Below are positions 1 to 24,236 of a stretch of 64,000 bases of DNA, one piece after another. The stretch is taken from NCBI RefSeq assembly GCF_024521635.1, contig NW_026250432.1, positions 62,001 through 126,000 on the forward strand. The letters are read 5' to 3'. The position numbers and the translations under genes were made by a program. The stretch's first letter is position 1. Each line of letters opens with the position of its first letter. The notes beneath the pieces are model-generated. The model was given only the letters and a program-made list of their open reading frames with translations, was not told the DNA's origin and did no database searches. Source of the DNA: Tricharina praecox (Eukaryota).

Positions 1-2672
1 GCTACGAATATCATGTCCATCGACGAAGCGCATAAGGCTCGGGAGCAGGGGGCGAGCATGCGGAGGCTGTCCTGGGTAACAGTAGGTTCCGCCGGTGAAT
101 GTATTTCCGCAATGACGCTGACGGTTTTCAGTTTATATTTTTACCCCTCCTCTTCGTGGCGGTAAGTGGCCTTGAATGCGAAATTTTACCCATCCGCTAA
201 TAATCATGCTAGAGTTTATACGGTATGAATGTGGGTATTCCGATACACCCCCTCACCCCCTCCGAACAACATTGCTAACCTGTAGATTAGGTGGATGCTA
301 CCGAAAACAACCCAACATGGACGACCTTCTTCTACATCGCCGTACCAGTTTTTACCGTCGTTATGTTGAGTGTGTTGATACTTAAGTTCCGCAAGGGGCT
401 CCGGAGTTTCTTACCCAACCCAGCAATCCGCACGAAACGCAACCAGAATAACGGCGGCGACATAGAGAATCAGAAGGCCGAACTTCACAGCATGAGCATC
501 CCCTTGATCTCAGCGATCGAGCAAGATATGGTCGCCGTCGTCGAGCAGTATCTTGTCGAGCGGAGTGACATCGATAGAGACATTCCCGAACGCGGGAATG
601 CACTACAATGTGCGTTGATTGCGGGAAGTTTGGGTGTGACTACCCTTCTTCTGGAAAAGAAAGCGGATGTCAATGCAGCGCCAGGACCATACCGCGGCGG
701 AAGAACCGCCCTCCAAGCAGCATCGGAAGGACGCCACCTTGAAGTGGTGGATCGACTCTTGGAGAAGGGGGCCGATGTCAACGCAGATCCAGCACGTCAT
801 TCCGGAAGAACCGCCCTACAAGCAGCATCGGAAGGAGGCCACCTTGAAGTGGTGGATCGACTCTTGGAGAAGGGGGCTGATGTCAACGCAGATCCAGCAG
901 GTCATTCCGGAAGAACCGCCCTACAAGCAGCATCGCAAGGAGGCCACCTTGAAGTGGTGGATCGACTCTTGGAGAAGGGGGCCACTGTCAACGCAGCGCC
1001 AGCAAGATTTTCCGGAAGAACCGCCCTACAAGCAGCATCGGAAGGAGGCCACCTTGGAGTGGTGGATCGACTCTTGGAGAAGGGGGCCGATGTCAACGCA
1101 GATCCAGCACATGGTTCCGGAAGAACCGCCCTACAAGCAGCATCGGAAGGAGGCCACCTTGGAGTGGTGGATCGACTCTTGGAGAAGGGGGCCGATGTCA
1201 ACGCAGATCCAGCATTTGATTCCGGAAGAACCGCCCTACAAGCAGCATCGGAAGCAGGCCACCTTGGAGTGGTGGATCGACTCTTGGAGAAGGGGGCCAC
1301 TGTCAACGCAGATCCAGCATTTGATTCCGGAAGAACCGCCCTACAAGCAGCATCGGAAGGAGGCCACCTTGGAGTGGTGGATCGACTCTTGGAGAAGGGG
1401 GCCACTGTCAACGCAGATCCAGCATTTGATTCCGGAAGAACCGCCCTACAAGCAGCATCGGAAGCAGGCCACCTTGAAGTGGTGGATCGACTCTTGGAGG
1501 AGGGGGCCACTGTCAACGCAGATCCAGCAAGTCGTTCCGGAAGAACCGCCCTACAAGCAGCATCGGAAGGAGGCCACCTTGAAGTGGTGGATCGACTCTT
1601 GGAGAAGGGGGCCGATGTCAACGCAGATCCAGCAGGTCATCCCGGAAGAACCGCCCTACAAGCAGCATCGGAAGGAGGCCACCTTGAAGTGGTGGATCGA
1701 CTCTTGGAGAAGGGGGCCGATGTCAACGCAGCGCCATCAGATTGGCACGGAAGAACTGCCCTACAAGCAGCATCGGAAGGAGGCCACCTTGAAGTGGTGG
1801 ATCGACTCTTGGAGAAGGGGGCCACTGTCAACGCAGATCCAGCAGGTGATTCCGGAAGAACCGCCCTACAAGCAGCATCGGAAGGAGGCCACCTTGGAGT
1901 GGTGGATCGACTCTTGGAGAAGGGGGCCGATGTCAACGCAGATCCAGCATATGATTACGGAAGAACCGCCCTACAAGCAGCATCGGAAGGAGGCCACCTT
2001 GGAGTGGTGGATCGACTCTTGGAGGAGGGGGCCACTGTCAACGCAGATCCAGCAAGTCGTTCCGGAAGAACCGCCCTACAAGCAGCATCGGAAGGAGGCC
2101 ACCTTGAAGTGGTGGATCGACTCTTGGAGAAGGGGGCCGATGTCAACGCAGATCCAGCAGGTCATTCCGGAAGAACCGCCCTCCAAGCAGCATCGGAAGG
2201 AGGCCACCTTGGAGTGGTGGATCGACTCTTGGCGATGAGGGCCCGTGTCAACGCAGCACCGGCAGGATGTAGAGGAAGAACAGCCCTACAAGCAGCATCG
2301 GAAGGAGGCCACCTTGGAGTGGTGGATCGACTCTTGGAGAAGGGGGCCGATGTCAACGCAGATCCAGCAGGTGATTCCGGAAGAACCGCCCTACAAGCAG
2401 CATCGCAAGGAGGCCACCTTGAAGTGGTGGATCGACTCTTGGAGAAGGGGGCCGATGTCAACGCAGCGCCAGCATATTGGTACGGAAGAACCGCCCTACA
2501 AGCAGCATCGGAAGGAGGCCACCTTGGAGTGGTGGATCGACTCTTGGAGAAGGGGGCCGATGTCAACGCAGCGCCAGAATCTTATTCCGGAAGAACCGCC
2601 CTACAAACAGCATCGGAAGGAGGCCACCTTAGAGTTGGGGAACGGCTACGTGCAGCAGGCGCAACTGAATAA
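1..2672 (+). CDS. CorA-like TM + ankyrin-repeat protein, paralogue 1 (5' part lies outside the window)
   Basis: Manual splicing of exons 1-81, 132-161, 213-230 and 291-2672 gives ...SIDEAHKAREQGASMRRLSWVT-FIFLPLLFVA-SLYGMN-VDATENNPTWTTFFYIAVPVFTVVMLSVLIL, i.e. a CorA-like TM1-GMN-TM2 module. It is followed by 19 GRTALQAASEGGHLxVVDRLLEKGAxVNA ankyrin units with no internal stop. Confidence 0.88.
660..2669 (+). repeat. Coding tandem array of 19 near-identical 105-bp (35-aa) ankyrin repeats
   Basis: GGAAGAACCGCCCTACAAGCAGCATCGGAAGGAGGCCACCTTG... recurs with a 105-bp period. Loop variants in order: YRG, RHS, GHS, RFS, HGS, FDS, FDS, FDS, SRS, GHP, DWH, GDS, YDY, SRS, GHS, GCR, GDS, YWY, SYS. Confidence 0.97.
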
Positions 2673-3178: not shown

Positions 3179-4603
3179 TCAATGCCCAACGTCTTTCAGC
3201 ATACCTATCCGTTTGGGCGTCGAGGTGGAACATCAATGCCAGAAACTGTGACTATAAAAGTTTGGTTGAGATGGTGGAGCTGGCTTGCCGCTGGACTATC
3301 CACGTGATAGAAGGTTCTCTCGAACAGTCTCCCCAACTTAACATCGCACCCTTGGGCCTTGGAGGGATCGCTTGTCTAGCGCCGCACCGCGGCTTTGGGA
3401 CGTCACAATGCGAGCCTATTGGCCTGGCATTTAGCGAGAGCCGGCAATTGACGTAGAGGACTGGGGTGGGTCGGCTACTGACTACTAGTAGCACGTAGTT
3501 CAGCCCGGACGCGACGTCGTCGTTCACCTTCTCGAGATCACGAGGAATATTTGCTATGTATGTAGATGGCAGCCCGTCCGCGTCAGGTTAATTCAAGATG
3601 CGAGGAAATCTTCAGCGAAAACTGGAGACTGGAGACTAGTGCTCATATCCACCTATCATGAGCACGAGAGAGTGAGAGTAAGAGTCGTGGATAATTCTCG
3701 TGCCCCTTCAAGCGACTCCGGCGGCCCGTCGTTCTAGTGTATTGACGTCGCGACACCCGTAGGTAATTATAGAAGGTACCTATCTCAAATACGGAGACCT
3801 AGCAATTCAAATCGAGACCATCCGTTCCGCCTTGGGCACAGGTAATCGGACCTATGGCAGTACCTACTTGAACAAGTACCCATGTATTTACTCACTGGTT
3901 GCCTTTCGTTCCGTCCGGTCGAGAAATACCTATTGGATGGAGCCGCCGTGAAACGTGCGCAGGGCGGTTGTCATAGTTACAAGGTGTGTATCGAGATTCT
4001 ATGCACTCACATCACGAACATAACTCCGCCCTGAAACCTGTGTACATGAGGATTCATGCGAGCTCAAGTTTGCACTGGTATGATACAATATCCCTACCAT
4101 GACCACCTGTTGTTCACCATGTGGTCCCCGCAGCGAATCCGAATACGAAAAAGAATGTCTCTCGGTGTCCTCTGCTCTCATGCAACTTGACTCCGGTTGT
4201 TATCGGTAGGCCAGCCGGCCCGCGTTCTGGCCACTCACCTGGTATGCATTTATGTCCCGTCCCATAGCATTTGTTTGTACGATACTCTACAGACTGTGGG
4301 TAACTGCTACATGACTACTGGTAGCTGGCGTGCATACATGTCTCACTTCTGCAGCGCGAACAAACTGTCAAAATCCCTAAAAGCACATTTTACCTAATGG
4401 ACCATGTACAGCGAACCACGCGTCTCTGTCATCTTTCCATCTCTCCATCTCTCCATATCTTCATCTCCCCGCCACATCGCCCAATAACTACCGGAAGCCC
4501 CCCCCTCCTCACGTATATACTCGACGAATTCGAAACCGGCTTGCACTGCTCTACAGCCCTTTAGCTCCGTATACTTTACCACCAGCGAACCGTGTCGATA
4601 CCT

Positions 4604-7600
4604 ATGAGCTATCCGGTTCCACCTACGCCGCTGCTCATGCAGGTTTGGATTGGCGATCGTCACTGGAAGATCCATACCAGAGAAGATCTGCAAGAGCTAC
4701 TTTGTGAGGTCGACGCGACGGTATGTAGGCTCATCAGGTGTTTGTCGCTGTATCTATGAGCCTGCTGTCCATCGCTGACAAGCATCGTTTGCAAGGACAA
4801 GCCAGGGCTCTTCAAGTTGGTGCCTCCTCCGACTCTACGGGGTACAAGGCCTGGATCTGTTTTCTAACTCCAATCAGCCTCACACCGGATATCGCAGACT
4901 GGCTATTGGACATGCTGTGCCAGCGGTTCGGGAAGCTGTTGAACCAGTCCAATATACCGACTATTCTGGGGGCAGCGAATGTGAGCCGCCCCGCCGGATC
5001 TTTGGGATCTTTGGGATCTCTGGGATTCTCGGCGGCTCAGGAGAGCTCCTTGTGTGACTGCAAAACATGTTTGGAGAATCGGGGGTCGCCTTGTGATATG
5101 TGCTGGATGACTCCCGGGTATTTCCCCTGTTGAACGTCACTGACGGCGAAGCTCGCGGTTCTTGGATACAAATCCCAGCCTACGAAGAGGTGTCAGTGCA
5201 CGAACAATTGGGCGTTTCGAAACAACCGCCCGAGGGAGGCCACTCCCTATTGGTGGATATCAAGTCTGACGACGAGAAGATGACCTTCTACCCTTCATAG
5301 CAAGCGCCCGACTTTGAAGGCCATCACGCAAAGCTGACGACCGGAAGCCGTACGTTTATTCGGCGAGAACGTTTCGTGTTCTACTGCCTGACCAACGGAG
5401 CTGGCAGACTGTTTTTCTTCAACACACGCTGGAAGAATACCGAAGCCAGCCGCCGACGTACGACTACGCCCGCAGCGCTTCTGGCCAGTTGTCTCAACGA
5501 TGTGTGCGATGACTGGGATAAGCTCATCAAATGCTATCGGCAATTGTTGTCCGACGCGGTGAGTCCTCCGTTGCGTGTTTCGGCGAGCACAATTCTCACG
5601 TCCACGGTAGAGCAAACGTATCCTGAGCGAGGGCGAACTGAACTCTCGACGCTTCATCCGCTCTTTGGTTATTGTTGCCGATAATGCCACCCGACTGGAA
5701 TCTGCACAACACGAGCAGATGCAGAGCATCGAGGCTTTGATGACGAACGGTGGTGGGACGCAGTGGTTTCGACCGCTGGTGAGCAACGTTTGGGGTGAGG
5801 GGAGAGAAGAGTACCTTGGCAATTTAGAAGGCGATGAAGCCAAATTGTGCCGTTCCGATCTCGCGAAAGCAACAGACCGGCTTGCAAAAGTTGGCGAAGC
5901 CATAGAAAGCGGATTGAGTAAGAGGATTGATTTATTGTTTCAGAGGGTATGCCAAACATCCGCACTTCCGCAGGCTTCGTCTAATCTTTCTGCGCGAAGG
6001 CTTCCAATATCGTTTCCATCGACGAGGCATCCAAAGCTGGAGAGCAGAATACTAGTATCAAGAGATTATCCTGGATTACTGTAAACCCATCCACCGCAAC
6101 ACTCTCTTGGACTGGCTAACCATATGAAATGTGGTCAGTTCATTTTCTTGCCGTTGCTTTTCGTATCTGTAGGTTACACTTCGTCCGGAAAAATTTGCGA
6201 ACTGCCATCTAATTGTACGATAGAGTTTATACGGAATGAACGTCGACTTGGTTGCAAACAACCTCAATGGACCACATCTTTCTACATTGCGGCACCAGTG
6301 TTTGCCGGCGTGATGCTGACGGTGATTTTCCTAAAGTACCTACGAGAGCCAAGGCAGAAATTCACCTCGAGGCTTATCCATGCCGTGTCCGAAATCACGA
6401 AACGGTTTCGGTTAGGAAAGTCCAAGAACGCCGACGAAGAAAACCAGGTCACCTCTACGGCCGTAGACCATCGGTATAAAGGATCCTTCTTTCTTGCGCT
6501 GCGCTCAGGACACCGGGTGACAGCCGGAAATCTGCTCGAGGTCGGGGTTGTCGACGGAACCTAGCATGACGGGAGAAAGACGGGTTTGCAATATGCCGCT
6601 GGCTAAGGCTACAGCGATATTGTGGAACGATTGTTGGCGATGGGTGCCGATGTCCACGCGAAGCCTTTTCCGGATGGCGGTAGGACCGCGCTGCAAGCTG
6701 CAGCGGAAGGCGGCCACCTTGCAATAGTGAAGCGACTCCTAGAGCATGCGGCTTACGTCAACACGGCACTGGCACAATGCGATGGACGGACAGCCCTACA
6801 GGCAGGCAGCATCGGAAGGAGGCCATATCGAAGTGGTAAACGAGCTCTTGGAAAATGGGGCCGATGTCAACGCAGCACCAGCGGATCGTGGAGGAAGAAC
6901 AGCCGTGCAGGCGGCATGTGGGAGAGGCCATCTCGCAGTGGTTCGAAGGCTCTTGGAAGAGGGAGCTGAGGTCGCCGCGGCCCCAGCAAGAAGGGGAGGA
7001 TGGACAGCCCTACAGGCTGCATCGGAAAGAGGCCACCTTGAAGTGGTGAATCAACTCTTCGAGAAGGGAACCGAGGTCAACGCACCGCCGGCACAACACG
7101 GCGGAAGAACAGCTCTCCAGGCAGCCTCGGAAGGAGGTCACCTTGAAGTTTTCGAACGGCTGCTGGGAGAGGACGCGGAGGTAGCCGCGGCAGCTGCGGG
7201 AAGGAGAGGGAGAACAGCCCTGCAGGCAGCATCGGGGAGAGGCCACCTTGCAGTGGTAAATCACCTCTTGGCTAACGGCACCGAGGTCAACACAGCCCCA
7301 GCAGAACACCACGGAAGAACAGCCCTACAAGCAGCATCCGAAGGAGGTCACCTTGCAGTAGTCGGGCGGCTCTTGACAAAAGAAGCCGATGTCAACGCAG
7401 CGCCAGCAAAACACGGAAGAACAGCTCTACAGGCAGCATCTGGAGGTGGACATCTTGTAGTAGTCGAGCGGTTGCTGAGGAATGGGGCCACTGTAAACGC
7501 AGATCCAGCGGCTTGCGAAGGAAGAACAGCCCTGCAGGCAGCATCCGGAGGTGGCCACCTTTCAGTAGCGGACCGTCTCTTGGAAAAGGGAGCCGATGTC

Positions 7601-9064
7601 AACGCAGCTCCAGCGGAAGAACTCGGACGGACAGCCCTACACGCCGCATCGGAAGGCGGCCATCTTGCCCTCGTCGAGCGACTCCTGGATAAGGGTGCCG
7701 ATGTCAATACAGAGCCAGCTGGGGATAATGGAAGAACTGCCCTGCAGGCAGCATCGGAAAGAGGGCATCTTGCAATAGTTGACCATCTGCTGGAGAATCG
7801 AGCTGAAGTTCAAGCGGCACCAGCAAGGACGAAAGGAAGAACGGCTCTGCAGGCAGCATCCGAAGGAGGTCATCTTTCGGTGGTGCAACAGCTCCTGGAC
7901 TCGGGGGCCAAAGTTAAAGAATTGCCGTCCAGCTCGGGCAGAACAGCCCTTCAAGCAGCATCGGAAGGAGGTCATCTGGCGGTAGTGAATCACCTCCTGG
8001 TGAACGATGCTGAGGTCAACGCACCGCCAGCGCAACCGGAAGGTCGAACAGCCTTACAAGCAGCTTCGGAAGGAGGCCACCTCGAGGTACTGAACCGACT
8101 CCTGGAGAAGGGGGCCGATGTCAATGCCGCACCCACAGCAGCACGCGGAAGAACAGCTCTACAAGCAGCCTCGGAAAGAGGTCACCTCGAAGTCGTCGGT
8201 CGACTATTGGAGGAGGCGGCCGAAGTCAACGCAACGCCAGCTGAACTTTACGGACGAACGGCTCTCCAGGCTGCGTCTGGAGGAGGCCATCATGCTGTCG
8301 TGGATAAACTCTTGGAGAAGCAGGCCGAAGTCAACGCAGCGCCAGCAAGATGGGGAGGAAGAACGGCTCTACAGGCGGCATCCGGAGGAGGCTATCTTGC
8401 AGTAGTTAATCAACTCTTGGAGAAGCAGGCTGATGTCAACGCAGTGCCGGCGGAATCCAAAAGAAGAACCGCCTGGCAAGCCGCATCGGAAGCAGGCCAT
8501 CTTCGAATAGTGGAGCGGCTCCTGAAGAAGGGGGCTAATGTTAATGCAGCCCCAGCAGGCGACGGCGGACGTACGGCTCTGCAAGCAGCATCGAAAGGAG
8601 GCCATCGCGCGGTAGTTGAGCGGCTTCTCAGAAAGGGAGCCAATGTCAACGCTGCCCCTGCAAACTCCGAAGGACGAACAGCTCTACAGGCAGCATCAGA
8701 AGGAGGCCATGTTACAGTAGTCGAGCGACTCTTGGAGAAGGGGGCCGATGTCGATGCCGCGCCAGCAGAATACGGACGAACTGCGCTACACGCAGCATGC
8801 AAAGGCGGGTATCTTGCCATTGTGGAGCTGCTCATCGTGCACGGGGCTAAAATCAACGCCGCACCCTCGAACGGGGGACGAACGGCGTTACAGGCAGCAT
8901 CGGAAGGAGGCCACCTGGGAGCAGTGAATCGATTGCTAGAGCACGGCGCCGATGCCACTGCTGCGGCAGCAATATATGGCGGGAAAACAGCCCTGCAAGC
9001 AGCGGCGGAAGGAGGCCATAAGGCAGTCGTCGAACGACTGACTGATCGGGGCGCAACCAAGTAA
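4604..9064 (+). pseudogene. CorA-like TM + ankyrin paralogue 2, disrupted
   Basis: ATG at 4604 (MSYPVPPTPLLMQVWIGD) is homologous to the starts of paralogues 3 and 4. FIFLPLLFVS/YGMNVDL module at ~6140-6260, then ~23 divergent ANK units. Lesions: in-frame TAG 6562 (Trp in paralogues), TAA 6604, 4-bp duplication frameshift near 6800-6807, and an apparent GT>AT donor loss at 5096. Confidence 0.82.
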
Positions 9065-10403: not shown

Positions 10404-13400
10404 ATGAGCCATTCGCCGAGCTCTGGTACGCCACCTGTTATGGAGGTGTGGCTGGATGAACGGCTCGTGGAGATTCGTACTAGGGAAGACATGGAAGCAG
10501 CGCTTTCTCAGGTTGATGATTCGGTATGTATAGTACGTGTAAATACGTGGCGACTTGCTACTATCTACTATGTAGTATCTACCGTATATCGCTGATACAC
10601 ATCCTTTATGTAGGAGTTGGACGATAAACTGGTTCTCTTCAAGTGGGTTCCTCGATAGTAAAAACTTATCTAGGTCTACATATGCTGATCAGAAACAGCT
10701 ACTCACAGGACGCTCCACACTGGTTGTTGGACATACTCTACAGACGCTTCGGGGCACTGTTGAACGGATCGCAAATACCGGCGATTTTAGGATCGGCATA
10801 TGTCAGCCGGCGTGGCGAGTCTTTGGGGTTTTCGGCAGGCAGTGGAAGTTCCTCATGTGTCTGTGAACAGTGTTCTGGAGATCCCAAGACCACCTGCGGT
10901 ATGTGCAGGATTGTTTCGGGCATTGGGATACCTACATCGCTCACGAAACAATCCGTGGTTCGTGGGCAAAAATTCCCCACAACTTCAGGTGGCAGTGCCC
11001 GGCGGCCGCGGAGGCAACAGAAGTGTCGCGAAGAAAGAGCGGGAGGCTCTGGGCGCCCGACTGGTAGACATATCGTCAGATGAGAAAACGATTACCTTCT
11101 ATCGTTCAAAGTGAGTTATACTACTATTCAGAAGTCATCCACGATCTGAGCTGACGACAGGTTGGAGACGCCGATTCAGTCGCCGGGAGTGTCTGGTCTT
11201 CTATAGCATTGCCGCCGGTGGTAGACCGTATCACTTCAATCCACGATGAAAGTACTCTGAAAGCCGGACCGGTGCACGTATGCCGCCTACACCTACCTCA
11301 CTTTTGACTTCTTGTCTGAGTGGTGTATGCGATAGTTGGGATACCCTCATCGACTGCTATAAGCAACTGTTGTCCGACGCAGTACGTTTTCCGTTCAAAC
11401 CCGAGTTATGTCGCGGTTTCCACGTTGGCCCCGCTTTGGTCAACGCCGGCGCCGCCAACTAATGATGATTACGATTGCTGAGGTCCAAATTCATATAGAG
11501 CAAACAGATCTTGAGCCAAAGCGAACTGGACTGTCAACTCTTCATTCGATCCTTGGTTACTGTTGCCGACATAGCAACCCGGCTCGAGATCGCGCAGCGG
11601 GAGCAAAGTGGGAGCATTGAGGCCATACTACTAGCCACGGACGGGAGTAGTATGACTCGGAAGTGGTATCCGCCTTCGATGACAAACGAGGGCGCAACGC
11701 AAGAAGTACGGAAGGAGGAGGACCCTAGTAGCGACCTGAACAGAGCACTGGAACAGCTGAAAAATAACGCCGCCGTTGTACAAACGAATTTGAGTGAGAG
11801 GGTTGATGTCTTGATTCAGAGGGTAGCATTGGACGCCCACTCTTCGCAGGGATTCTTCTAATAATCCTGTTCATACTTAGTCGTCCAACATCGTGTCAAT
11901 CGACGAGGCTTGCAAAGTCAGAGAGCAGAACGCCAGCATCAAGAGACTATCATGGATTACCGTAACTTCACCACTGCTCCAATATTCCATGCCTCACTAA
12001 TCATTTCTGTCTATTAGTTCGTCTTCCTGTCGTCTCGGTGGGCCCCTATCTTATACCGGTATATTCGGAAACTTTGAGAGTTGCTTTCTGATCACTGCAA
12101 TTGTATAACAGAGTTTGTACGGGATGAATGTCGACTTGCTTGCAGACAACCCGCAGTGGACCAGCTATTTCTACATCGCCGTACCAGTATTTCTAGCCGT
12201 GATTTTGACCGTGGGTTTCCTAAAGTATCTCCGAGGTCCACTGAGAGAATTCAGCGAGATGTTCTACAACGGTATACCTACGATTTCGCGAATTCAGGGG
12301 GGAAAGTCCAAGATTCCGGATGAGGAAAACCACATTTCTTCCGCAACCGCGGATCCGAGATATAAGGGGCCATTCATCCATGCAATCGGCTCGGGCCATA
12401 GTAGCATGGTTCACGATCTCCTAACCGCCGAAGCTGTGGACATTAATTGGAACGATGGGAAAATGGCGGCATTGCAATATGCAGCAGGCTTTGGAGACGG
12501 TGCAATGGTCGAGCAGCTTTTAGCGATGGGCGCCGATGTACATGCCAACCCACAGCCGAACGGTGGAAGAACGGCTCTTCAGGCAGCATCGGAAGGAGGG
12601 CATCTTGCAATCGTGAAACGGCTCTTGGAGAAGGGGGCCAATGTCAATGCAGCACCTGCAAAATCCGAAGGACGAACAGCCCTGCAGGCGGCATCGGAAG
12701 GAGGCCATATTGCAATAGTAGAGCGGCTCTTGGAGAGAACGGCGGATGTCAATGCGGCCCCTGCAAGATACGGAAGAACGGCCCTCCAAGCAGCAGCTGA
12801 TGGGGGGCACCTCATAGTAGTGGAACGGCTATTGGCGATGGGGGCCCGTGTCAACGCAGCACCGGCAGGATGTAGAGGAAGAACAGCCCTACAAGCAGCA
12901 TCGCAAGGAGGCAACCATGCCGTAGTGGAACTGCTCTTGGATAATGGAGCCAGTGTTAACGTGGCGCCAGCTGAAATCGAAGGACGAACAGCCCTACAAG
13001 CAGCTTCGGAAGGAGGCCATCTTGCGGTAGTGGAACAGCTCTTATTGAAGGGAGCTCATATCAATGCAGCACCAGCACGATCCGAAGGGCGAACAGCGTT
13101 ACAAGCAGCATCGGAAAGAGGCCACCTTTCAGTAATTAAGCGGCTCTTGGAGAATGGGGCCGATGTCAACGCAACACCAGCCGATCGAAAAGGAAGAACA
13201 GCACTACAAGCGGCCTCGCAAGGAAATCACCTCTTGGAGAAGGGGGCGCATGTCAACGCGGAGCCAGCAAAATCAGAAGGACGAACAGCCCTACAGGCTG
13301 CATCGGAAAAAGGCGATCTCGCCATAGTGGAGCGGCTGCTGGAGACAGGAGCGGATGTCAACGCAGCGGCGGCAGAATGGTCGGGAAGAACCGCCCTACA

Positions 13401-14395
13401 AGCAGCATCCGAAAGAGGCAACCTTTTCATTGTAAAGAGACTCTTGGAGAATGAGGGAGATTCCAACGCCGCACCAGTAAAACTCGGAGGACCTGCACTA
13501 CAAGCAGCATCGGAACGAGGCCATCTTGCTGTAGTGAAAAGACTCTCGGAGAAGGGGGCATATGTCAACGCAGCACCTGGAGAATGTAAAGAGGGAACAG
13601 CCCTACAGGCTGCGTCGGAAGGAGGCCACCATGCAGTAGTTGAACAGCTCCTGGAGAGTGGGGCCAATACGAATGCAGCGCCAATAGAATGGTCCGGAAG
13701 AACAGCTCTCCAAGCAGCATCGGGCAGAGGCCATCTTTCGGTGGTGGAGCGACTCTTGGAGAATGACGCCGATGTCAATGCGGCGCCAGCCAGATTCGAC
13801 GGAAGAGCAGCCCTACAAGCAGCGTCGGAAGGAGGTCACCTTGATGTAATGGAGCAACTCTTGGAGAAGGGGGCCGATGTCAATGCCGCACCAGCAGAGT
13901 ACGGGAGAAAAGCTCTATAAGCAGCATCAGAAGGAGGTCATCTTGCGGTAGTGGAGCGGCTTCTGGAGAGTGGAGCCAATATGAATTCAGCGCCGGCGGA
14001 ATGGTCCGGAAGAACCGCCCTCCAAGCAGCATCTGGCGGAGGCCATCTTGCAGTGGTTGACCGACTGTTGGAGAATAGAGTCGGTTTCAAGGCCCCGCCA
14101 GCAAGATTCAACGGAAGGACAGCCCTGCAAGCCGCATCGGCAGGTGGCCATCTTGCGGTGGTGGACCGACTCTTGGATAGGGGGGCGGATGTCAATGCAG
14201 GACCATCAGTCTGAAGAGGAACCGCCCTACAAGCAGCATCATCAGGCGGCCACCTTGTCATAGTGGAGCAGCTCTTGAAGAAGGGAGCCGATGTCAATGC
14301 CATCAGACTGGGGAAATACAGCCTTGCAAGCAGCATTGAAAGGAGACCATCTTGCGGTAGTGGAGCGGTTACGCAAAGCAGGTGCCACAACGTAA
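10404..14395 (+). pseudogene. CorA-like TM + ankyrin paralogue 3, disrupted
   Basis: Start MSHSPSSGTPPVMEVWLD; LYGMNVDLLADNPQWTSYFYIAVPVF module; ~18 divergent ANK units. Lesions: TGA 11247 (Trp in paralogues), shortened TM1 exon near 12020-12040, partial repeat deletion near 13230, TAA 13918 (CAA in other units), TGA 14212 and a frameshift near 14310. Confidence 0.82.
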
Positions 14396-15049
14396 GAAGG
14401 TGCGAACCATCTCCAGAAAGCCTTCTGTTTCCCAGCTTTGGATTCTGATATCATGCTCGCAGAGATTGAACTGACCGTCGACTGCTTTGACGACGATAGA
14501 ATGTGCGTGATCAAGTGGGTGTTGATGTACGGGATTTATCATTAATTGTCGGTGGGATATCGGAGGATAACTGACGATGGGATTATGGGTTTCTTTTGGT
14601 GAATATATGGATCATGGATGACTAGAATTTGCTCGCGTTACCTTACTCACTGAACTCCAACTTCGCTATCATCATGCATTATCACCCGATGGCATGCTTC
14701 GGATTGACTGTCGGAAAGTATGAATGAATACCTAGTGTATTGAGAGAGTCTGAAGGCCTCGGGAGAAAACATAAAAGTGGGGTGGTAGGTGGCCAGTGCT
14801 CCTACCGCCGTCATGATCACGCAATGAACGACCAAGTAACGGACGAGTAAGGAGCGAACGACTCGATATTACAACATTGACCTCAGCTATTCCTATCAAT
14901 TGGCGCAATTCACCTCCGTCGGGACTACAGTCGGGTCTTCCTACCATGAATGGATGCTGTTCGTCAATCCTTGCCTTGGTCTTGCTGGTGATCTCGCTGA
15001 CGACGACTTGCAAACGTAAATACCTTCGCGAAACAATGATTTCAGTTTA

Positions 15050-15463
15050 GGGACCGTTTGGATGGCCTCAGTTTTAGCGAAAACTGTCAGTTTTTCGAGA
15101 AACTGAGCAAATAGAACTGAGACCCCGTTTGGATGGCACAAAAACTTAAAAAAAGAAACCGAAACCGTGCGGCTCCAGCGACGAAACTGATACTGACCTC
15201 AAGAGGTCATTTCTTTGCCGCCACTTAGTATCGCATTTTAACTTCAACCATGAGAAAAAAGCGGGGCCACAATGTGTCCACTATTAGAGTTCTGGTGAAG
15301 CCTATTATTCAGACTTATGGCTGAGGAATCTGAGAACTGCCAAACACTCTGTTCACCTTACAGTTCTCCGGAAACTGAAACTGGACAGAATTCGGTGTCC
15401 CGTCGGGGAACTGAATTTCGCTCTAAAACTGGAACTGAAAACTGAGGCCATCCAAACGGGCCC
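15050..15463. mobile_element. PIF/Harbinger-type (Tourist-like) MITE, copy A
   Basis: 26-bp TIRs GGGACCGTTTGGATGGCCTCAGTTTT / AAAACTGAGGCCATCCAAACGGGCCC with one mismatch, flanked by TTA on both sides. No coding capacity; a related copy lies at 35919-36435. Confidence 0.88.
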
Positions 15464-18050
15464 TTAGATATCTACATCCATTGCACCCAAGGTTTATATT
15501 CACCAGCTCGTAAGATGTAACATGTTGGACATAAACCCGTATGCTAATCCCGCAAAAACGATAAGTTTATGGATTGGTTTGTGGGCGGGAATGCGGGCAG
15601 CAGCGGGTTAGTAACGATTTGATTGTACCAGCACAATGATTGTCGAGACGATTCGGACGAAAGGGTGGGAATATGGGCAACGGGGGGGCTTAGTAATTGA
15701 TTTCTCGTCTCCGTTTCGTTTCAGTTTTCTACCTGGGCCGAGACTGGGCCCCGGTACCGGCTGCTGCTCGCCCTGTAGATATATACCCTTGGTTCCGAAC
15801 TCTCTTTATGTACCAGTCTCTGGCTTCCTACCAATTCTTCTCAGATATATACCTAATCCTCTTTCGGTGAGCTAACAAGGCCGAGAGGGACATGCGTCGT
15901 CGTCGTCGTCGTCCGGACTCCGGACCGGTTGCCGTGGCAGCGATTCACAGCTTGTGCGTCCGGCTAGTCCAGCACACCAGGTCTCCAAGTCGATATCTGG
16001 TTCATTCGATCGGAGTTTATCCAGGTGCTGGCGGGCTTGTTGGGCGTGCATCGGGCCAGACCCGGAGCCTCGCTGCGCATTCTTCGCACACCTGGCTGCT
16101 TGGGTTTCGGTGAACATGGTGGCTCTTCCCCGCATTCGTCGTTTGACTGTCCCCCACCGCATGCCCTCGCGCTCGCTGCGTGTTGCGCCTCGGAGAGTGG
16201 GTTAGTCCTGCAAAACTCCCGCGCCCGCCGCCGTAGTCCGAGAACATGATTCCAATGGCTCGGTGGGAACAGGACTTTCCCCACGGCATGGAAGTCGATC
16301 TGACAGACCACTGTCAATCCCCCGATAAACGCAGTGGTGCCTCTCGTTGCGGTGGATGCACTAGGTAACTCGAGTCTTGATTTTCGACCGCGAAATAATC
16401 ACCAATAGGTAGTTACCTACTCCATCCTGTTGAAGGGCTTCGACTGGCTACTTCCTAGTAACTCGTGACGCGTTTCTGATGGAAATTGTTGCCCGTGAAT
16501 GTTCCGATCCTGTATGTATGTAACCATGGTGGTCGTGTGCTGGCGGGGGAAAAAGTAACGCTGCAGGCGGAGGGGAGCCCGCCTGCAGCGTTAAAGTAGC
16601 GCACAGGCGCAGGGTCATCCGCGGCAAAGTCGATGTAACCTCTTCTCCGCCCAAGTACTTTGCATCAATAAATCCAAACCCTTCTGCAGTAACCTCTCAT
16701 CACATACCGCAAATCTGATGATTGGAAGCCTATATCGTATGTGCGGCCAACAATCCAACCGGCTCCGTCCCAAGCGGATCTTAACCTCGACACGCTCTCG
16801 ACCTCGTCCCCTCGCAATTTAAAGCGGGAGAACCACTCCACCATGACGAACAACATGGTACCGGAGGTTTACGATGAGTCGATAGAACAGAGGGGCACGA
16901 AGGAGGGTTTGGGGCAGGAGGTCGCGATATTGAGCCGAAGTGAACAGCGGAGGAGAGCCCATTGCCTACACGATGCGACACCCCGTTCACTGATCGCCCA
17001 TGAGTACCTACCATATTCCGCCGCCCTCTCGCACAACAGCCACAGAGTGGAGGGGAAGGGCTTGCAGTGTGACTACACGTTTAGGGCCAGTCACAACATC
17101 TGCAGCTGACGGCCAAACCCGCAAATTCAGACAATCAACAAACAACCAAACGACAGGCACGGACTTCCGCCTCCAAATCGACCGAATGAAAATCGCCGAA
17201 GCGCAGACGAGAAGGAGTGGAAATCGAGCAGGCTTTAGTGATGTTCTGGTAAGTTCGCAAACGACGGGAGGATTCGGAAGGGAGAAGAATATAAAAAAGT
17301 GCGCCGCAGGTCTCGGTACGAGGGGGACAAAAAGTCTCACACATCGGCGCAATTGGGCTTTACGTATTGCGCGCAAGTTGGGAACAGCTGGGTGCTTCAC
17401 GCGTTGAGAACCAGGTATCTACGCCCTTATCATTGTGAGGATACGGTGAACGGCTCACGAGGTGAAGAAACTCGTGTTGTGTTCTCATCCTTGTCCTGCA
17501 TGCCGGCAACTCCGCATTTCCCTCCCTTCCTTCGGACTCCTTCCAATGCCAGAACAGCAAAGTGTTCACGAATTTACAGCCAACAATCAGTCCACCATGT
17601 TACGCTCAAAACTACCTCTTGTTTTATGCAAGAACTGCAGTCTCTCGCGTGCCGAGTGAAGGACTTCGGGAGGTCGTTGGTTGACTTCTGAAGTTCTGAG
17701 TCGGATACGCTGCGGCTGGGTGACACGTCGATAGCCCCACCGGCCAAAAACACCTCTGATAGGCCGGCTTCAGCACGCATGATTCACTTTCATGCTGTTC
17801 AGGTCCCAATCATGAACAAGCCACGGGCGGGCTTAGAAGCACATCCGTGCGTAGGATCTCTCGTCTTTTGCCGTCTCTCCATCTTTCCGTCACAACATTC
17901 ACTTCCCTCCTAATATCGGACGCCCTCGGATTTTGCCTACTCTGTGATCTTGAACTCGAACTTCACTACCTCGCTGCCAGAAGACCACCTATCTTTCGAC
18001 TGCTTGCTCTGTCACCTACAGTGTGCTCTCTCCGGCAAAGCCTTCCGGAA

Positions 18051-21000
18051 ATGAGCCATCCAAACTCGCGCACGCCACCTGTTATGGAGGTATGGCTAGG
18101 CGACCAGCTTTTAGAGATCCATACCCAGAAAGATCTAGAAGGGGCGCTTCGTGAGGTCGACAAGCCGGTATGTATAAGTGCTTGCATAAGTACTTATCGT
18201 CTTGCTGTTCATCGCTGATGCACTCTTTAGGGTTCGCAGGAAACCTTAGTTCTCTTTAAGTGAGTACCTCCTCAATTATGAGTACTAAATCCTGGATGTA
18301 TATACTTACCCAACATAGCTACACTCAGGACGGCCCTGACTGGTTGTTGCACGGACTATTCAGACGTTTCGGAACGGTGATGAGCGACTCCCGAATACCA
18401 GTGAATTTGGTATCGACGTTTGTGAGCCTACGTGACGAGTCTTCGGGGTTCGCGGCAGGGCATAGAAGCTCCTCATGTGCCTGTGAAAAATGTTCTGGCT
18501 ATTCTAAGACCCCTTGTGGTATATACTAGATTGGCTTGGGGTATTGCTCAGGACATCGCTAACTCAACAGTCCGTGGTTCTTGGACAAAATTTCCAGCTT
18601 ACGAAGAGGTGGATTACCCAGAAGAGGTGAGGCTGGACGACAAACATGTTTCCAAAAAACAGCGGAAGGCTCTTGACGCCCAACTGGTACATATCAGTCC
18701 CGATGAGAAGATAATAACATTTTATCATTCAAAGGCAAGCCCAGAAGGCTCTCGCGAAAAGCCGACGATTAAAATGCGCCAATTCATTCGCCGGGAGCAC
18801 CTAGTCTTCTATAGCCTTGCCGTTAGTGACGACCGAGAGTATCACTTCAACCCACGTTGGAAGTACACTGAAAACCGACCCGCGCCTACACCTACACCCA
18901 CAACTCTTCTGACTTCTTGTTTGAACGTTGTTTGCGATGATTGGGACAAGCTCCTCAACTGCTATAAGCAACTGTTGTCCGACGCAGTAAGTGCTCTGTT
19001 ACCTAAGAACTATCTGCAACGGATGAGTTTCTGATGTCCGCGTTAGAGCAAACAGATCTTGAGTCAAAGCGAATTGGATTGTCAACTCTTCATTCGGTCC
19101 TTGGTATCCGTTGCCGATATAGCCACCAGGCTAGAGGTCGCGCAACGGGAGCAATGGGGGAGCATTGAGGCCATGTGCAAAGACGGGAGTATGCCGAAGT
19201 GGCAACGGCGCCTACACAACGAGGACACAACGGCAGAAGTACGAGAAGGGAACTCGATCGAGCTGGGAAGCGACGACGCAACGCGGGTACGAAAAGCAGG
19301 CTCTACCGACTTGGAGAAAGCACATGGACGTCTTAAAGGTCTCGCTGAGATCATAGACACCAATTTAAGCAAGAGAGTTGATGTCTTAATTCAAAGGGTA
19401 TGAAAAGTTCAGCCTAACAAAAGGTTTCTTCCAATAACCTGTGCATAGTCATCCAATATCGTGTCCATCGACGAGGCGTACAAAGCTAGGGAACAGAATG
19501 CGAGCATCAAAAGACTATCATGGATTACAGTAAATTCACCAATCCAATGTCCCCGAGCCTGACTAACCATACGCACTGCCAGTTCATCTTCTTACCATTG
19601 CTATTCGTATCGGTAAGCAACATTACGTCCAGAAAAACTTGGGGAGTCGCTTTTCTGACCGACCAACAGAGCTTGTACGGGATGAACGTCGATTTGCTTG
19701 CAGACAACCCCCAATGGACTACATATTTCTACATTGCGGCACCGGTATTCGCGGGCGTAATGTTAGCGGTGGTTTTCCTAAAGAATGTTCGGAATTCAAA
19801 GCAACCATCCACATCGAGGTTCTTGAAGCCCATGTCGAAACTTATTACAACGGGATTGAGGTTAGGAAGAAAGACACAGATTCCTGACGAGGAAAACCAA
19901 ATACAACCTTCCTCAGCCGTGAACCACAGGTATAGAGTACCATTCGTTCACGCTATCAGCTCACGCCACAGCGGAATTGTTCGGGATCTCTTAAGTACTA
20001 ACGCTGTGGATGTGAACTGGAACGACGGCAAAATGACAGCATTGCAATATGCAGCGAGCTATGGCCACAGTGATAATGTGGAAAAACTTTTAGCAATGGG
20101 CGTTGATGTGAACGCAAGTCCACAAAAGGAGGGTGGAAGGACCACGCTTCAGGCAGCATCGCAAGGAGGCCACCTTGGAGTGGTGGATCGACTCTTGGAG
20201 GAGGGGGCCACTGTCAACGCAGATCCAGCAAGTCGTTCCGGAAGAACCGCCCTACAAGCAGCATCGGAAGGAGGCCACCTTGAAGTGGTGGATCGACTCT
20301 TGGAGAAGGGGGCCGATGTCAACGCAGATCCAGCAGGTCATTCCGGAAGAACCGCCCTCCAAGCAGCATCGGAAGGAGGCCACCTTGGAGTGGTGGATCG
20401 ACTCTTGGAGAAGGGGGCCACTGTCAACGCAGATCCAGCAGGTCATCCCGGAAGAACCGCCCTACAAGCAGCATCGGAAGGAGGCCACCTTGAAGTGGTG
20501 GATCGACTCTTGGAGAAGGGGGCCGATGTCAACGCAGCGCCATCAGATTGGCACGGAAGAACTGCCCTACAAGCAGCATCGGAAGGAGGCCACCTTGAAG
20601 TGGTGGATCGACTCTTGGAGAAGGGGGCCACTGTCAACGCAGATCCAGCAGGTGATTCCGGAAGAACCGCCCTACAAGCAGCATCGGAAGGAGGCCACCT
20701 TGGAGTGGTGGATCGACTCTTGGAGAAGGGGGCCGATGTCAACGCAGATCCAGCATATGATTACGGAAGAACCGCCCTACAAGCAGCATCGGAAGGAGGC
20801 CACCTTGAAGTGGTGGATCGACTCTTGGAGAAGGGGGCCGATGTCAACGCAGCGCCAGCATATTGGTACGGAAGAACCGCCCTACAAGCAGCATCGGAAG
20901 GAGGCCACCTTGAAGTGGTGGATCGACTCTTGGAGAAGGGGGCCACTGTCAACGCAGATCCAGCAGGTCATTCCGGAAGAACCGCCCTACAAGCAGCATC

Positions 21001-23053
21001 GGAAGCAGGCCACCTTGGAGTGGTGGATCGACTCTTGGAGAAGGGGGCCACTGTCAACGCAGCGCCAGTATCTTATTCCGGAAGAACCGCCCTCCAAGCA
21101 GCATCGGAAGGAGGCCACCTTGGAGTGGTGGATCGACTCTTGGAGAAGGGGGCCGATGTCAACGCAGATCCAGCACGTCATTCCGGAAGAACCGCCCTCC
21201 AAGCAGCATCGGAAGGAGGCCACCTTGGAGTGGTGGATCGACTCTTGGAGAAGGGGGCCACTGTCAACGCAGATCCAGCAGGTCATCCCGGAAGAACCGC
21301 CCTACAAGCAGCATCGGAAGGAGGCCACCTTGAAGTGGTGGATCGACTCTTGGAGAAGGGGGCCGATGTCAACGCAGCGCCATCAGATTGGCACGGAAGA
21401 ACTGCCCTACAAGCAGCATCGGAAGGAGGCCACCTTGAAGTGGTGGATCGACTCTTGGAGAAGGGGGCCACTGTCAACGCAGATCCAGCAGGTGATTCCG
21501 GAAGAACCGCCCTACAAGCAGCATCGGAAGGAGGCCACCTTGGAGTGGTGGATCGACTCTTGGAGAAGGGGGCCGATGTCAACGCAGATCCAGCATATGA
21601 TTACGGAAGAACCGCCCTACAAGCAGCATCGGAAGGAGGCCACCTTGAAGTGGTGGATCGACTCTTGGAGAAGGGGGCCGATGTCAACGCAGCGCCAGCA
21701 TATTGGTACGGAAGAACCGCCCTACAAGCAGCATCGGAAGGAGGCCACCTTGAAGTGGTGGATCGACTCTTGGAGAAGGGGGCCACTGTCAACGCAGATC
21801 CAGCAGGTCATTCCGGAAGAACCGCCCTACAAGCAGCATCGGAAGCAGGCCACCTTGGAGTGGTGGATCGACTCTTGGAGGAGGGGGCCACTGTCAACGC
21901 AGCGCCAGTATCTTATTCCGGAAGAACCGCCCTCCAAGCAGCATCGGAAGGAGGCCACCTTGAAGTGGTGGATCGACTCTTGGAGAAGGGGGCCACTGTC
22001 AACGCAGCGCCAGTATCTTATTCCGGAAGAACCGCCCTCCAAGCAGCATCGGAAGGAGGCCACCTTGGAGTGGTGGATCGACTCTTGGAGAAGGGGGCCG
22101 ATGTCAACGCAGATCCAGCAGGTCATTCCGGAAGAACCGCCCTCCAAGCAGCATCGGAAGGAGGCCACCTTGGAGTGGTGGATCGACTCTTGGAGAAGGG
22201 GGCCACTGTCAACGCAGATCCAGCATTTGATTCCGGAAGAACCGCCCTACAAGCAGCATCGGAAGGAGGCCACCTTGGAGTGGTGGATCGACTCTTGGAG
22301 AAGGGGGCCACTGTCAACGCAGATCCAGCATTTGATTCCGGAAGAACCGCCCTACAAGCAGCATCGGAAGGAGGCCACCTTGGAGTGGTGGATCGACTCT
22401 TGGAGAAGGGGGCCGATGTCAACGCAGCGCCAGCATTTTATTCCGGAAGAACCGCCCTACAAACAGCATCGGAAGGAGGCCACCTTGGAGTGGTGGATCG
22501 ACTCTTGGAGAAGGGGGCCACTGTCAACGCAGATCCAGCAGGTCATTCCGGAAGAACCGCCCTCCAAGCAGCATCGGAAGGAGGCCACCTTGGAGTGGTG
22601 GATCGACTCTTGGCGATGAGGGCCCGTGTCAACGCAGCACCGGCAGGATGTAGAGGAAGAACAGCCCTACAAGCAGCATCGGAAGGAGGCCACCTTGGAG
22701 TGGTGGATCGACTCTTGGAGAAGGGGGCCGATGTCAACGCAGATCCAGCAGGTGATTCCGGAAGAACCGCCCTACAAGCAGCATCGCAAGGAGGCCACCT
22801 TGAAGTGGTGGATCGACTCTTGGAGAAGGGGGCCGATGTCAACGCAGCGCCAGCATATTGGTCCGGAAGAACCGCCCTACAAGCAGCATCGGAAGGAGGC
22901 CACCTTGGAGTGGTGGATCGACTCTTGGAGAAGGGGGCCGATGTCAACGCAGATCCAGCAGGTCATTCCGGAAGAACCGCCCTCCAAGCAGCATCGGAAG
23001 GAGGCCACCTTAGAGTTGGGGAACGGCTACGTGCAGCAGGCGCAACTGAATAA
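18051..23053 (+). CDS. CorA-like TM + ankyrin-repeat protein, paralogue 4 (apparently intact, ~1535 aa)
   Basis: Manual exons 18051-18167, 18231-18259, 18319-18518, 18571-18986, 19047-19397, 19449-19529, 19583-19612 and 19670-23053 are all GT-AG and stay in frame. They encode IDEAYKAREQNASIKRLSWIT-FIFLPLLFVS-SLYGMNVDLLADNPQWTTYFYIAAPVFAGVMLAVVFL followed by 28 GRT(A/T)L ankyrin units. Confidence 0.85.
20130..23050 (+). repeat. Coding tandem array of 28 105-bp ankyrin repeats
   Basis: Same consensus as 660-2669. Loop order: KEG, SRS, GHS, GHP, DWH, GDS, YDY, YWY, GHS, SYS, RHS, GHP, DWH, GDS, YDY, YWY, GHS, SYS, SYS, GHS, FDS, FDS, FYS, GHS, GCR, GDS, YWS, GHS. Confidence 0.97.
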
Positions 23054-23559
23054 GGTAGAAGCCATTCCTGGAATCCACTTTTTCCTGGTTATTAATACTT
23101 ATTATGATTGACGACAGATTATGCATGTTTCAGATCGGTTTACGACCGGTTAGCGAGATAGAGCGGGTGTTGGTATTCAGGATCATCGTGTCCCGTCGAT
23201 GGATGACGTACGACGATACATTTGTTTTTTTTTTGTACATGCATGATGGATGTCGATATTTTGCCTGTTATCCTCGATCTATTGGTTTCAATTTTCTCTT
23301 TCTCTCTAAATGCTTTACTATTGTTGGTAATTCGTTTTGTATCAGGTTGTACTGATACTCCCTCACTGCCGCACTACGTGAGGAATGGGGTTATTGGTGT
23401 CTGGATGTGATACTGTCGGAGATGGATAATGAGGTACTTTGACAAACATTGAGCAAGGCGACGAGTGCTTGTTTTCTTCCTCCGGTGTACGTAGCCCACC
23501 TTCGCGGGTATCGCAGTGGCGACATGGTATCATACCTATACATGCTGGGGTTTATTCGT
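23054..23559 (+). repeat. 3' flank of paralogue 4, near-identical to 2673-3178
   Basis: Direct sequence match that ends at ...GGGTTTATTCGT. Confidence 0.95.
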
Positions 23560-24236
23560 CGTAACGGTAGATTTTACCTGCCGAGTTTCGCGACGACGGA
23601 AAGTGCAAGATCGAGTGGGTGTTCGTCCGTCAGATGCAGATTTCTTTGCGAATGGATATTGCCGAGTGACGGCGATGAAGGGTGATTTCCTTAGTGTTTA
23701 AGGATGATGAATGACTACATTTTATGCTCTCCCTCTCCGGAACCCTCTAAATGCGGGGTTTTGCACGGGGTTTTCGTACTACGGCTACTGTGTATGCACG
23801 CATCGTATTCAAAATTAGTGAAGGAAGAGGTTATTTGAGAATGCGGAGGCCGTATGTGAATCGATTTGGGTCGACGAACGTTGCAGATGGAGAACCTTGC
23901 GGTGTTTGGTGCAATAGGTTATCGTTTTATCTGTGTATGATATCTGTGAATGATATCCGATGGGAAAATGCTGAGAAAGGGTGACCGGAGCGTGGTTGGG
24001 AGTTTCATAGGTTTCTGTGAGCAGGACTCATTCATCGGTTCCTCAGCACCGGCAGGCTTCCTTTGAACTTTTTGCCGCCTGTGCTCAGGCCAGTCACACT
24101 TCACATCCCGAGTACAGCCAGTAACTATTCTCCTCTCGAACCAAAAAAAAGCACAACATTATGTATAACCCCAGTGCACACGCTCAAGTACAAGTACAAT
24201 CCTCCTATATCTATGCAACCCAATGTGACCAAGCAC

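What the first reader, a model, noticed from the sequence alone, without database searches (positions are those of the whole stretch)
20130..23050. Variation is concentrated in three adjacent codons per repeat, with an NNT-NNT-NNC pattern
Seen: in copies 1 and 4 the unit is almost invariant, including synonymous sites, apart from a few two-state sites and the codons just before GRTAL: CGT CAT TCC, GGT CAT CCC, CAT GGT TCC, TTT GAT TCC, AGT CGT TCC, GAT TGG CAC, TAT GAT TAC, TAT TGG TAC, TCT TAT TCC, TTT TAT TCC. Codon positions 1-2 vary while position 3 is nearly fixed, and the residues are rich in aromatic and charged side chains (Y, W, F, H, R, D). Established: this beta-turn is part of the ankyrin binding face that is randomised in DARPins. 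Inference: strong diversifying selection on a natural DARPin-like library. The pattern also resembles adenine-directed DGR mutagenesis, but no template or reverse transcriptase is visible here.
Basis: partly seen in the sequence, partly recalled or inferred. Interest (0 to 1): 0.78.

Follow-up and report, generated by a model that had tools for sequence, protein, structure and literature searches.

The report
Hypervariable ankyrin array on CorA-like protein
A fungal gene family joins a magnesium-channel-like membrane domain to near-identical ankyrin repeats whose binding loops diversify by ordinary selection and recombination, as in fungal immune receptors, and not by a retroelement.

Summary
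In 45 core units of copies 1 and 4, three codons (9 of 105 nt) hold 47% of pairwise differences. NNT-NNT-NNC fits 10 of 15 distinct loops. The DGR-like reading fails: I found no template and no RT on the contig, TGG codons occur, and related arrays fix other third letters. Third positions are no more frozen than the framework's. The codons lie in the ankyrin beta-hairpin (DARPin positions 1-3). Loop non-synonymous change is about 7.5 times the unit's synonymous rate. This is the known regime of fungal NLR repeats: concerted evolution plus diversifying selection. What differs is the host protein. The spliced, transcribed 1535-aa gene has no NACHT; the array follows a CorA-like stalk/TM1-GMN/TM2 module. 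Copies 1 and 4 (N-termini 37% identical) share one repeat pool and 3' flank. One loop sits in a 62-bp tract identical to a broken paralog. The same TM-plus-array layout appears in 11 of 12 metagenome loci. A non-self sensor coupled to a pore is inferred, not shown.

The parts
18051..23053 (+). Copy 4 gene, 8 exons (18051-18167, 18231-18259, 18319-18518, 18571-18986, 19047-19397, 19449-19529, 19583-19612, 19670-23053), 1535 aa, open throughout
   Evidence: Six introns seen as GT..AG joints in run X2, the seventh (18987-19046) from contig ends and a loose end; one stop only
18051..19529 (+). Soluble N-terminal domain and long stalk helix, CorA-like (stalk shown by homology; N-terminal fold not shown)
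   Evidence: phmmer to the genome's own Pfam-CorA loci, E 4.5e-7 and 6.7e-7 over aa 324-421
19583..19789 (+). TM1, YGMN signature (within 19670-19687) and TM2 of the CorA-like module
   Evidence: Hydropathy peaks at aa 394-400 and 425-430 window starts; E 1e-7 to L034, best of 20 shuffles 0.097; Pfam CorA 252-290 only E 0.21 on the exon piece
20108..23047 (+). Array of 28 ankyrin units of 105 bp / 35 aa with high internal conservation
   Evidence: AlphaFold model of 9 units pLDDT 82.5; DARPin and ankyrin matches
20231..20239 (+). Example of the hypervariable triplet (bases +18 to +26 of every unit; last one at 22961-22969), beta-hairpin just before G-R-T-A-L
20337..21880 (+). Recent 8-unit (840 bp) internal duplication; 704 bp exact (20337-21040 = 21177-21880)
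   Evidence: not checked on long reads
22620..22681 (+). 62-bp tract with the GCR loop, identical to copy 3 (12842-12903) and to copy 1 (2239-2300): probable import by gene conversion
   Evidence: next longest exact match to copies 2 or 3 is 29 bp
23054..23560 (+). 3' flank shared with copy 1 (2673-3179), 503 of 507 identical
1..2672 (+). Copy 1 (starts upstream of the window at C29:60495): predicted intact, 1205 aa, 19 units (672-2666) from the same repeat pool; N-terminus 37% identical to copy 4
   Evidence: intron model by homology, not by RNA
4604..9064 (+). Copy 2: paralog with a low-conservation array (67% matches) and in-frame stops at 6562 and 6604; probable pseudogene
10404..14395 (+). 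Copy 3: paralog with a low-conservation array and in-frame stops at 11247 and 13918; probable pseudogene and donor of the GCR tract

Best explanation
A fungal membrane protein of the CorA-like family carries a cytoplasmic C-terminal ankyrin array that evolves like the sensor domains of fungal NLRs. Unequal crossing-over and gene conversion, within the array and between paralogs, keep the framework nearly identical and reshuffle units. Selection keeps amino-acid-changing point mutations and occasional imported patches in the beta-hairpin of the binding face. Position 3 of the loop codons stays near its ancestral letter because synonymous changes are not favoured and are homogenised away. Shown: gene structure, transcription, CorA-like TM module, site pattern, recombination, exchange between paralogs. 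Inferred: the array binds variable non-self ligands, and binding gates or triggers an oligomeric CorA-type pore (ion flux, perhaps cell death). I put the evolutionary mechanism at about 0.85 and the non-self-sensor-plus-pore function at about 0.45.
For: Loop N per site 2.67 vs synonymous 0.36 per site (ratio 7.5, p=1.6e-7); framework ratio 0.64; the same excess in three other arrays of this genome (C17 9.5, C83 5.9, C39 4.3). Changes at codon positions 1/2/3 pooled over nine arrays: 67/46/33, p=0.003 against equal shares. 80 of 351 site pairs are incompatible with a single tree; 8 of 19 copy-1 units are identical to copy-4 units; 840-bp duplication. 62-bp tract identical to copy 3. Loops lie between helix 2 and the next helix 1 and align with variable DARPin positions. 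Spliced joints. CorA homology. 11 of 12 related metagenome loci have a 105-bp array after the TM match, and the twelfth contig ends first; codons 7-9 are the most variable stretch in the 6 arrays with enough units. Precedent: PMC4986451 section 17; PMC13449251 passages on repeat exchange between paralogs.
Against: The test inside the loop (N vs S) is not significant for copies 1+4 (p=0.29; 0.088 without the imported unit), and the position test for them alone gives p=0.096. The pooled arrays are related, so not independent. No recombination-aware site model was run. Three two-state non-synonymous framework sites (codons 4, 24, 35) make pairwise pN exceed pS outside the loop. Pfam CorA is far below its cut-off on exon pieces (11.3 vs 27 bits), and the N-terminal fold model failed (pLDDT 45.5). 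Only 1 of 15 loops could be traced to a donor. No ligand, oligomer or phenotype is known, and no strain-to-strain polymorphism was shown.
Confidence: 0.7

Rival explanations
1. Same evolution of the array, but the protein is a regulated metal transporter or a membrane-anchored scaffold whose ankyrins bind varied partners, with no role in non-self defence.
For: The GMN signature is kept in copies 1, 3, 4 and C17. CorA-type families are expanded in a lichen fungus and read there as Mg2+ transporters (PMC3897900 passages). High-conservation arrays in this genome also sit on other N-termini (C39, C83).
Against: Diversifying loops, tandem paralogs with pseudogenes and array swapping fit an arms race better than housekeeping transport; the genome has separate ordinary CorA genes.
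Confidence: 0.2
2. The loop is only unconstrained or a local mutation/conversion hotspot; neutral variants are shuffled by concerted evolution.
For: Within-loop N vs S not significant in any of the 4 own-genome sets (p 0.13-0.94); loop pLDDT is lower than in helices; third positions in some arrays vary widely (C17, L047, L048).
Against: Mere loss of constraint caps at dN/dS of about 1, and the observed ratio to the unit's synonymous rate is 4-9. A hotspot should hit all three positions alike; the pooled count is 67/46/33, and no T/C synonymous variant occurs among the 15 loops.
Confidence: 0.1
3. DGR-like adenine-directed mutagenesis from an AAY-AAY-AAY template.
For: 10 of 15 loops fit NNT-NNT-NNC; several related arrays also hold near-constant third letters (C39 G/T/T in 7 of 7; L056 G in 16 of 16 at codon 7).
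Against: No template: the pattern search gave 1 unrelated match at 2 mismatches; all 91 matches of the unit lie in six coding arrays; in the DiGReF-style scan the best candidates were array units explaining 8 of 45 targets with at most 2 changes. None of 140 RT matches is on contig C29. TGG in 7 of 45 units cannot come from AAT. Simulated templates fail at every retention level tested: loops too alike at 0.25 and 0.5 (P 0 and 0.0025 of 2000), too few A at 0.5 and 0.7 (P 0). Third letters differ between arrays (0 NNT-NNT-NNC loops in C17, C39 and six metagenome arrays). DGRs were not found in eukaryotes in PMC3521204 (passages).
Confidence: 0.02
4. The array, its duplication and the sharing between copies 1 and 4 are assembly artefacts.
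For: Such arrays are unreliable in short-read assemblies (PMC12222747 passages); 704-bp exact duplication and a 99% identical flank; only contigs, no long reads, could be laid.
Against: Copies 1 and 4 differ in unit order and at 4 flank sites. Loop variants recur in independent runs: the YWY loop and the ESY part of copy 1's last loop in X6, the DWH loop in X2. Unit order could be wrong without affecting the loop repertoire.
Confidence: 0.04

Closest known systems
High-internal-conservation ANK sensor domains of fungal NLRs (Podospora Pa_3_8560, Pa_2_8180; PMC4986451 section 17; PMC13449251)
   Same: Near-identical repeats, selected sites in the beta-hairpin/loop and inner helix, concerted evolution, repeat exchange between paralogs, pseudogenes nearby.
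   Different: No NACHT or NB-ARC; the array follows a CorA-like two-helix membrane module; 35-aa units with a two-residue longer hairpin; whole-array plus 3' flank sharing between paralogs only 37% identical.
CorA/Alr1/Mrs2 (GMN) family, including the SAM-AMP-activated CorA effector of Bacteroides fragilis type III CRISPR (10.1101/2024.04.08.588522, passages)
   Same: Stalk helix, TM1, GMN, TM2; a CorA protein can serve as a ligand-activated membrane effector in immunity.
   Different: Highly diverged, below the Pfam cut-off on exon pieces; a long ankyrin array after TM2; eukaryotic; no known ligand.
Plant ankyrin-transmembrane immune proteins such as ACD6 (10.1101/2021.01.25.428077, abstract)
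   Same: Intracellular ankyrins on a channel-like membrane protein, with variant-specific binding of partners.
   Different: Different membrane domain; ankyrins N-terminal and no near-identical hypervariable array (both recalled, not tested).
DARPins (engineered)
   Same: Consensus framework at about 40% identity; variation at positions matching DARPin 2, 3, 33 and weakly 13-14.
   Different: Natural; position 5 invariant Arg; position 1 variable; two-residue insertion.
Diversity-generating retroelements (PMC3521204, passages)
   Same: Superficially, variation at codon positions 1-2.
   Different: No RT nearby, no template repeat, not adenine-restricted, stepwise loop network, eukaryotic host.

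Membership tests
DGR | Template repeat differing from the variable repeat only at adenines | tested here: not met
   (genome searches score only best candidates, so they are lower bounds)
DGR | Associated reverse transcriptase | tested here: not met
   0 of 140 RVT_1 matches on contig C29
DGR | RT of the DGR clade (GxxxSQ motif) anywhere in the genome | not tested
   Four outlying hits were fetched; only L070 gave a readable RT ORF, with FGLRTSP instead; the other 139 were not classified
DGR | Adenine-restricted, independent randomisation | tested here: not met
   TGG/AGA/GGA codons; simulations
Fungal NLR (STAND) | NACHT or NB-ARC domain | tested here: not met
   No such Pfam hit on the long ORF or on exons 4-6; exons 1-3 (116 aa) were not scanned, and no Walker A is visible in the spliced product
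Fungal HiC repeat sensor domain | At least 85% internal identity over 100 aa or more | tested here: met
   91-92% DNA matches over 27 and 18 units
Fungal HiC repeat sensor domain | Diversifying selection at hairpin and inner-helix sites | tested here: met
   Counting tests and mapping; formal site models not run; within-loop test alone not significant
Fungal HiC repeat sensor domain | Repeat-number polymorphism between strains | not testable with these tools
   Only contigs of public runs were available
CorA/GMN superfamily | Stalk helix plus two TM helices with GMN after TM1 | tested here: met
   E 1e-7 to 3.6e-5 against 4 of the genome's Pfam-CorA loci among 1038 ORF pieces; 20 shuffles best 0.097
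CorA/GMN superfamily | Pfam PF01544 above cut-off | tested here: inconclusive
   11.3-11.7 bits vs 27 on intron-split pieces; not among the 11 genome matches; the spliced protein was not scanned
CorA/GMN superfamily | N-terminal alpha/beta/alpha domain | tested here: inconclusive
   Exon-4 model pLDDT 45.5; no Pfam or PDB hit
CorA/GMN superfamily | Pentameric assembly and divalent cation transport | not testable with these tools
   Needs structure or transport assay

The most novel reading that the evidence does not exclude
A family of NLR-independent fungal immune receptors in which a hypervariable ankyrin sensor is fused directly to a CorA-type pore, with whole sensor arrays swapped between distant paralogs and broken paralogs acting as a reservoir of loop patches.
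Probability: 0.35. Interest if true: 0.8.

Novelty: new variant of a known kind. Interest (0 to 1): 0.5.

Why it matters
The codon pattern itself is ordinary selection. The combination is not described in the papers I could search. If the array gates a CorA-type pore, fungi have a sensor-plus-pore receptor without the NOD switch, parallel to plant ankyrin-TM proteins and the CRISPR CorA effector. It would be testable by allele swaps, because specificity sits in three codons per repeat. It also suggests that the expanded fungal 'CorA-like transporter' families include defence genes.

Tried and rejected
Protein searches with exon 4: none at E<=0.001 among longer proteins; 3 hits among representatives, of which 1 is a true relative (P0003) and 2 are repeat-driven artefacts. 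Atlas: nothing informative for exon 4, ankyrins only for the TM piece. The first metagenome scan with exon 4 found 0 of 73 candidates. The PDB profile searches with A1 and A2 gave nothing significant. The exon-4 fold was too poor to search. The automatic splice search gave no model for copy 1, and the first manual model was wrong, corrected. No RNA holder is listed on record; X2 is only guessed to be RNA, although it shows spliced joints. Run X6 covers the repeats but not the N-terminal part (2 of 30 bins), which is not evidence of absence. No donor was found for 14 of 15 loops in copies 2, 3, C17, C83 or C39. RIP dinucleotide indices of the N-terminal regions are close to background. A column-shuffle control of the loop network was borderline (P=0.05). 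Earlier findings: none. The 'cora' hit in PMC12258605 was 'coral'.
Full report
Setting. The window is eukaryotic and fungal-like: ORC3, Sec1, Npl4, Nop52, Vta1, Vps5 and SNF2 genes follow the locus, and the assembly has 38 Mb in 104 contigs. The first 23 kb hold four tandem paralogs ending in 105-bp ankyrin arrays. Copies 1 and 4 have 91-92% matches between units; copies 2 and 3 have about 67-71%.

Observation. There are 47 units, 19 plus 28. For counting I dropped the first unit of each copy and masked the C-cap of the last, leaving 45 units, 29 distinct. Codons 7-9 of the unit take 7, 8 and 5 amino acids and 47% of all pairwise differences; pN/pS is 0.47/0.086 there and 0.049/0.035 elsewhere. 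The pattern NNT-NNT-NNC covers 10 of 15 distinct loops. Outside the loop, 18 sites segregate, three of them common two-state amino-acid changes at codons 4, 24 and 35.

Is position 3 special? No. Its heterozygosity in the loop (0.13, 0.25, 0.07) is above the framework third-position value (0.035), while positions 1-2 reach 0.50. Other arrays fix other letters. C39 has G/T/T in 7 of 7 loops, C17 varies freely at two of the three codons, and the metagenome arrays are mostly NNG-NNT-NNT. The pattern is what one expects when selection keeps amino-acid changes on a homogenised ancestral codon.

Selection. A per-codon minimum-change count, which does not need a tree, gives 19 non-synonymous changes in 7.1 loop sites against 10 synonymous changes in 28 sites of the whole unit (ratio 7.5, p=1.6e-7). 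The framework ratio is 0.64. C17, C83 and C39 give 9.5, 5.9 and 4.3. Against my reading: inside the loop alone the test is not significant (p=0.29, or 0.088 without the imported unit). Changes by codon position are 11/7/4 for copies 1+4 (p=0.096) and 67/46/33 pooled over nine arrays (p=0.003). C83 and the short arrays L046, L049, L052, L053 and L054 were left out of that pool, and several pooled arrays are relatives. A local hotspot is therefore unlikely but not excluded. No site model was run.

Position on the fold. An AlphaFold model of nine units (pLDDT 82.5) puts helices at residues 13-20 and 23-31 of each unit, so codons 7-9 lie in the connecting hairpin. The model matches DARPins and ankyrins. 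In the alignment to DARPin 5le2, codons 8-9 face the two residues before G that differ between its modules, codon 4 faces the residue after VNA, and codons 19-20 face the pair before GH; the residue after G, variable in the DARPin, is always Arg here. The DARPin position numbers are recalled. That DARPins bind through randomised concave-face positions is from PMC8229355 (passages). I could not compute surface exposure on the model.

DGR test. Defining features are from PMC3521204 (passages). No template was found: the AAY pattern gave one unrelated match at two mismatches, all 91 matches of the unit lie in six coding arrays, and a DiGReF-style scan of the four fetched regions found only array units. 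None of 140 RT matches is on the contig; most were not classified. TGG occurs in 7 of 45 units. Simulated adenine randomisation fails either on loop similarity or on adenine content at all three retention levels. The DGR reading is rejected.

The gene. Run X2 shows seven GT..AG joints in the stretch, six constitutive and one alternative, and contig ends support the intron at 18987-19046; DNA run X1 covers the stretch in exact pieces that run through introns. The spliced copy 4 is one open frame of 1535 aa with two hydrophobic segments around a YGMN motif. Residues 324-445 match four of the genome's Pfam-CorA loci at E 1e-7 to 3.6e-5 among 1038 pieces, while 20 shuffles reach at best 0.097. Pfam itself gives only E 0.16-0.21 on intron-split pieces, and the N-terminal fold could not be modelled. 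No NACHT or NB-ARC domain was found. With two membrane helices the array would be cytoplasmic (inference from CorA topology, recalled).

Recombination and exchange. 80 of 351 site pairs are incompatible with one tree, and copy 4 holds an 840-bp duplication with 704 bp exact. Copy 1 is predicted intact at 1205 aa, and its N-terminus is only 37% identical to copy 4's. Yet 8 of its 19 units are identical to copy-4 units and 503 of 507 bases of 3' flank agree: an array with its flank moved between old paralogs. A 62-bp tract with the GCR loop is identical in copies 1, 3 and 4, against at most 29 bp for any other match to copies 2 or 3. Its codon choices fit copy 3, so import from copy 3 is the likely direction (inference). 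Copies 2 and 3 carry in-frame stops. The other 14 loops have no traced donor.

Family. A fifth paralog on C17 has the same layout with an 11-unit array and the same variable codons. Twelve of 80 metagenome candidates encode the TM region; 11 have a 105-bp array downstream and one contig ends first. In the six with enough units, codons 7-9 are the most variable stretch. One public protein, P0002, has the TM region before an unrelated low-conservation array.

Comparison. Concerted evolution with positive selection in the hairpin and inner helices is described for fungal NLR ankyrin repeats (PMC4986451, passages and section 17). Repeat exchange between paralogs, and high conservation in 5.6% of repeat proteins without an ATPase, are in PMC13449251 (passages and section 12). 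Four searches for CorA with ankyrin in fungi gave no description of this fusion; I read passages of PMC3897900 and PMC12258605 and saw only listings of the others. Most subscription papers are not searched, and I did not open supplements, where domain tables could list the architecture. CorA as an immune membrane effector is from 10.1101/2024.04.08.588522 (passages), ACD6 from 10.1101/2021.01.25.428077 (abstract), and assembly caveats from PMC12222747 (passages).

Verdict. The finding is real and its evolutionary explanation is known; the retroelement idea is wrong. The new part is a hypervariable sensor-type array on a CorA-like membrane module without a NOD domain, with array swapping and a pseudogene donor. 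It works like a fungal NLR sensor domain but is not an NLR. Function remains inferred. Interest 0.5.

Noticed in passing
window 18627-18734: In-frame alternative intron (108 nt, 36 aa) in exon 4 of copy 4; both the spliced and the retained form appear in run X2.
   Followed up: partly
L029 (C39:1066-1071 kb, minus strand): 42-unit high-conservation 105-bp ankyrin array with the same variable codons, behind what looks by eye like a Zn2Cys6 motif and not a CorA-like domain.
   Followed up: partly
L027:7351-8190 (C83): 8-unit array, 86-88% like the copy-4 unit, with only two loop types, behind a different N-terminus with C2H2-like motifs (by eye): the repeat type is shared across unrelated domains.
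   Followed up: partly
L058 (C19) and L057 (C10): Two further high-conservation ankyrin arrays with 99-bp units (25 and 23.5 copies, 92%); L058 follows a winged-helix domain (E 7e-4) of the kind recalled from NACHT proteins.
   Followed up: partly
window 15049-15075 and 15438-15464: 27-bp inverted repeat pair (96%) bounding about 415 bp: MITE-like element between copies 3 and 4.
   Followed up: no
G000 C19:684-692 kb and C34:235-243 kb: Ankyrin matches with identical scores and ORF lengths in mirrored order: segmental duplication or assembly redundancy.
   Followed up: no
unit codons 24 and 35 in copies 1 and 4: Two common two-state changes (G/E and D/T) outside the hairpin at near-even frequency; unexplained.
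   Followed up: no
L050:2578-3261: An RNase H-like retroelement fragment (by eye) lies upstream of the TM exon in one metagenome relative.
   Followed up: no
window 24358-64000: Ordinary housekeeping genes follow the cluster: ORC3, Sec1 family, Vta1, PP2C, Npl4, Nop52, DUF2417, SNF2 helicase, Vps5, NUDIX.
   Followed up: no
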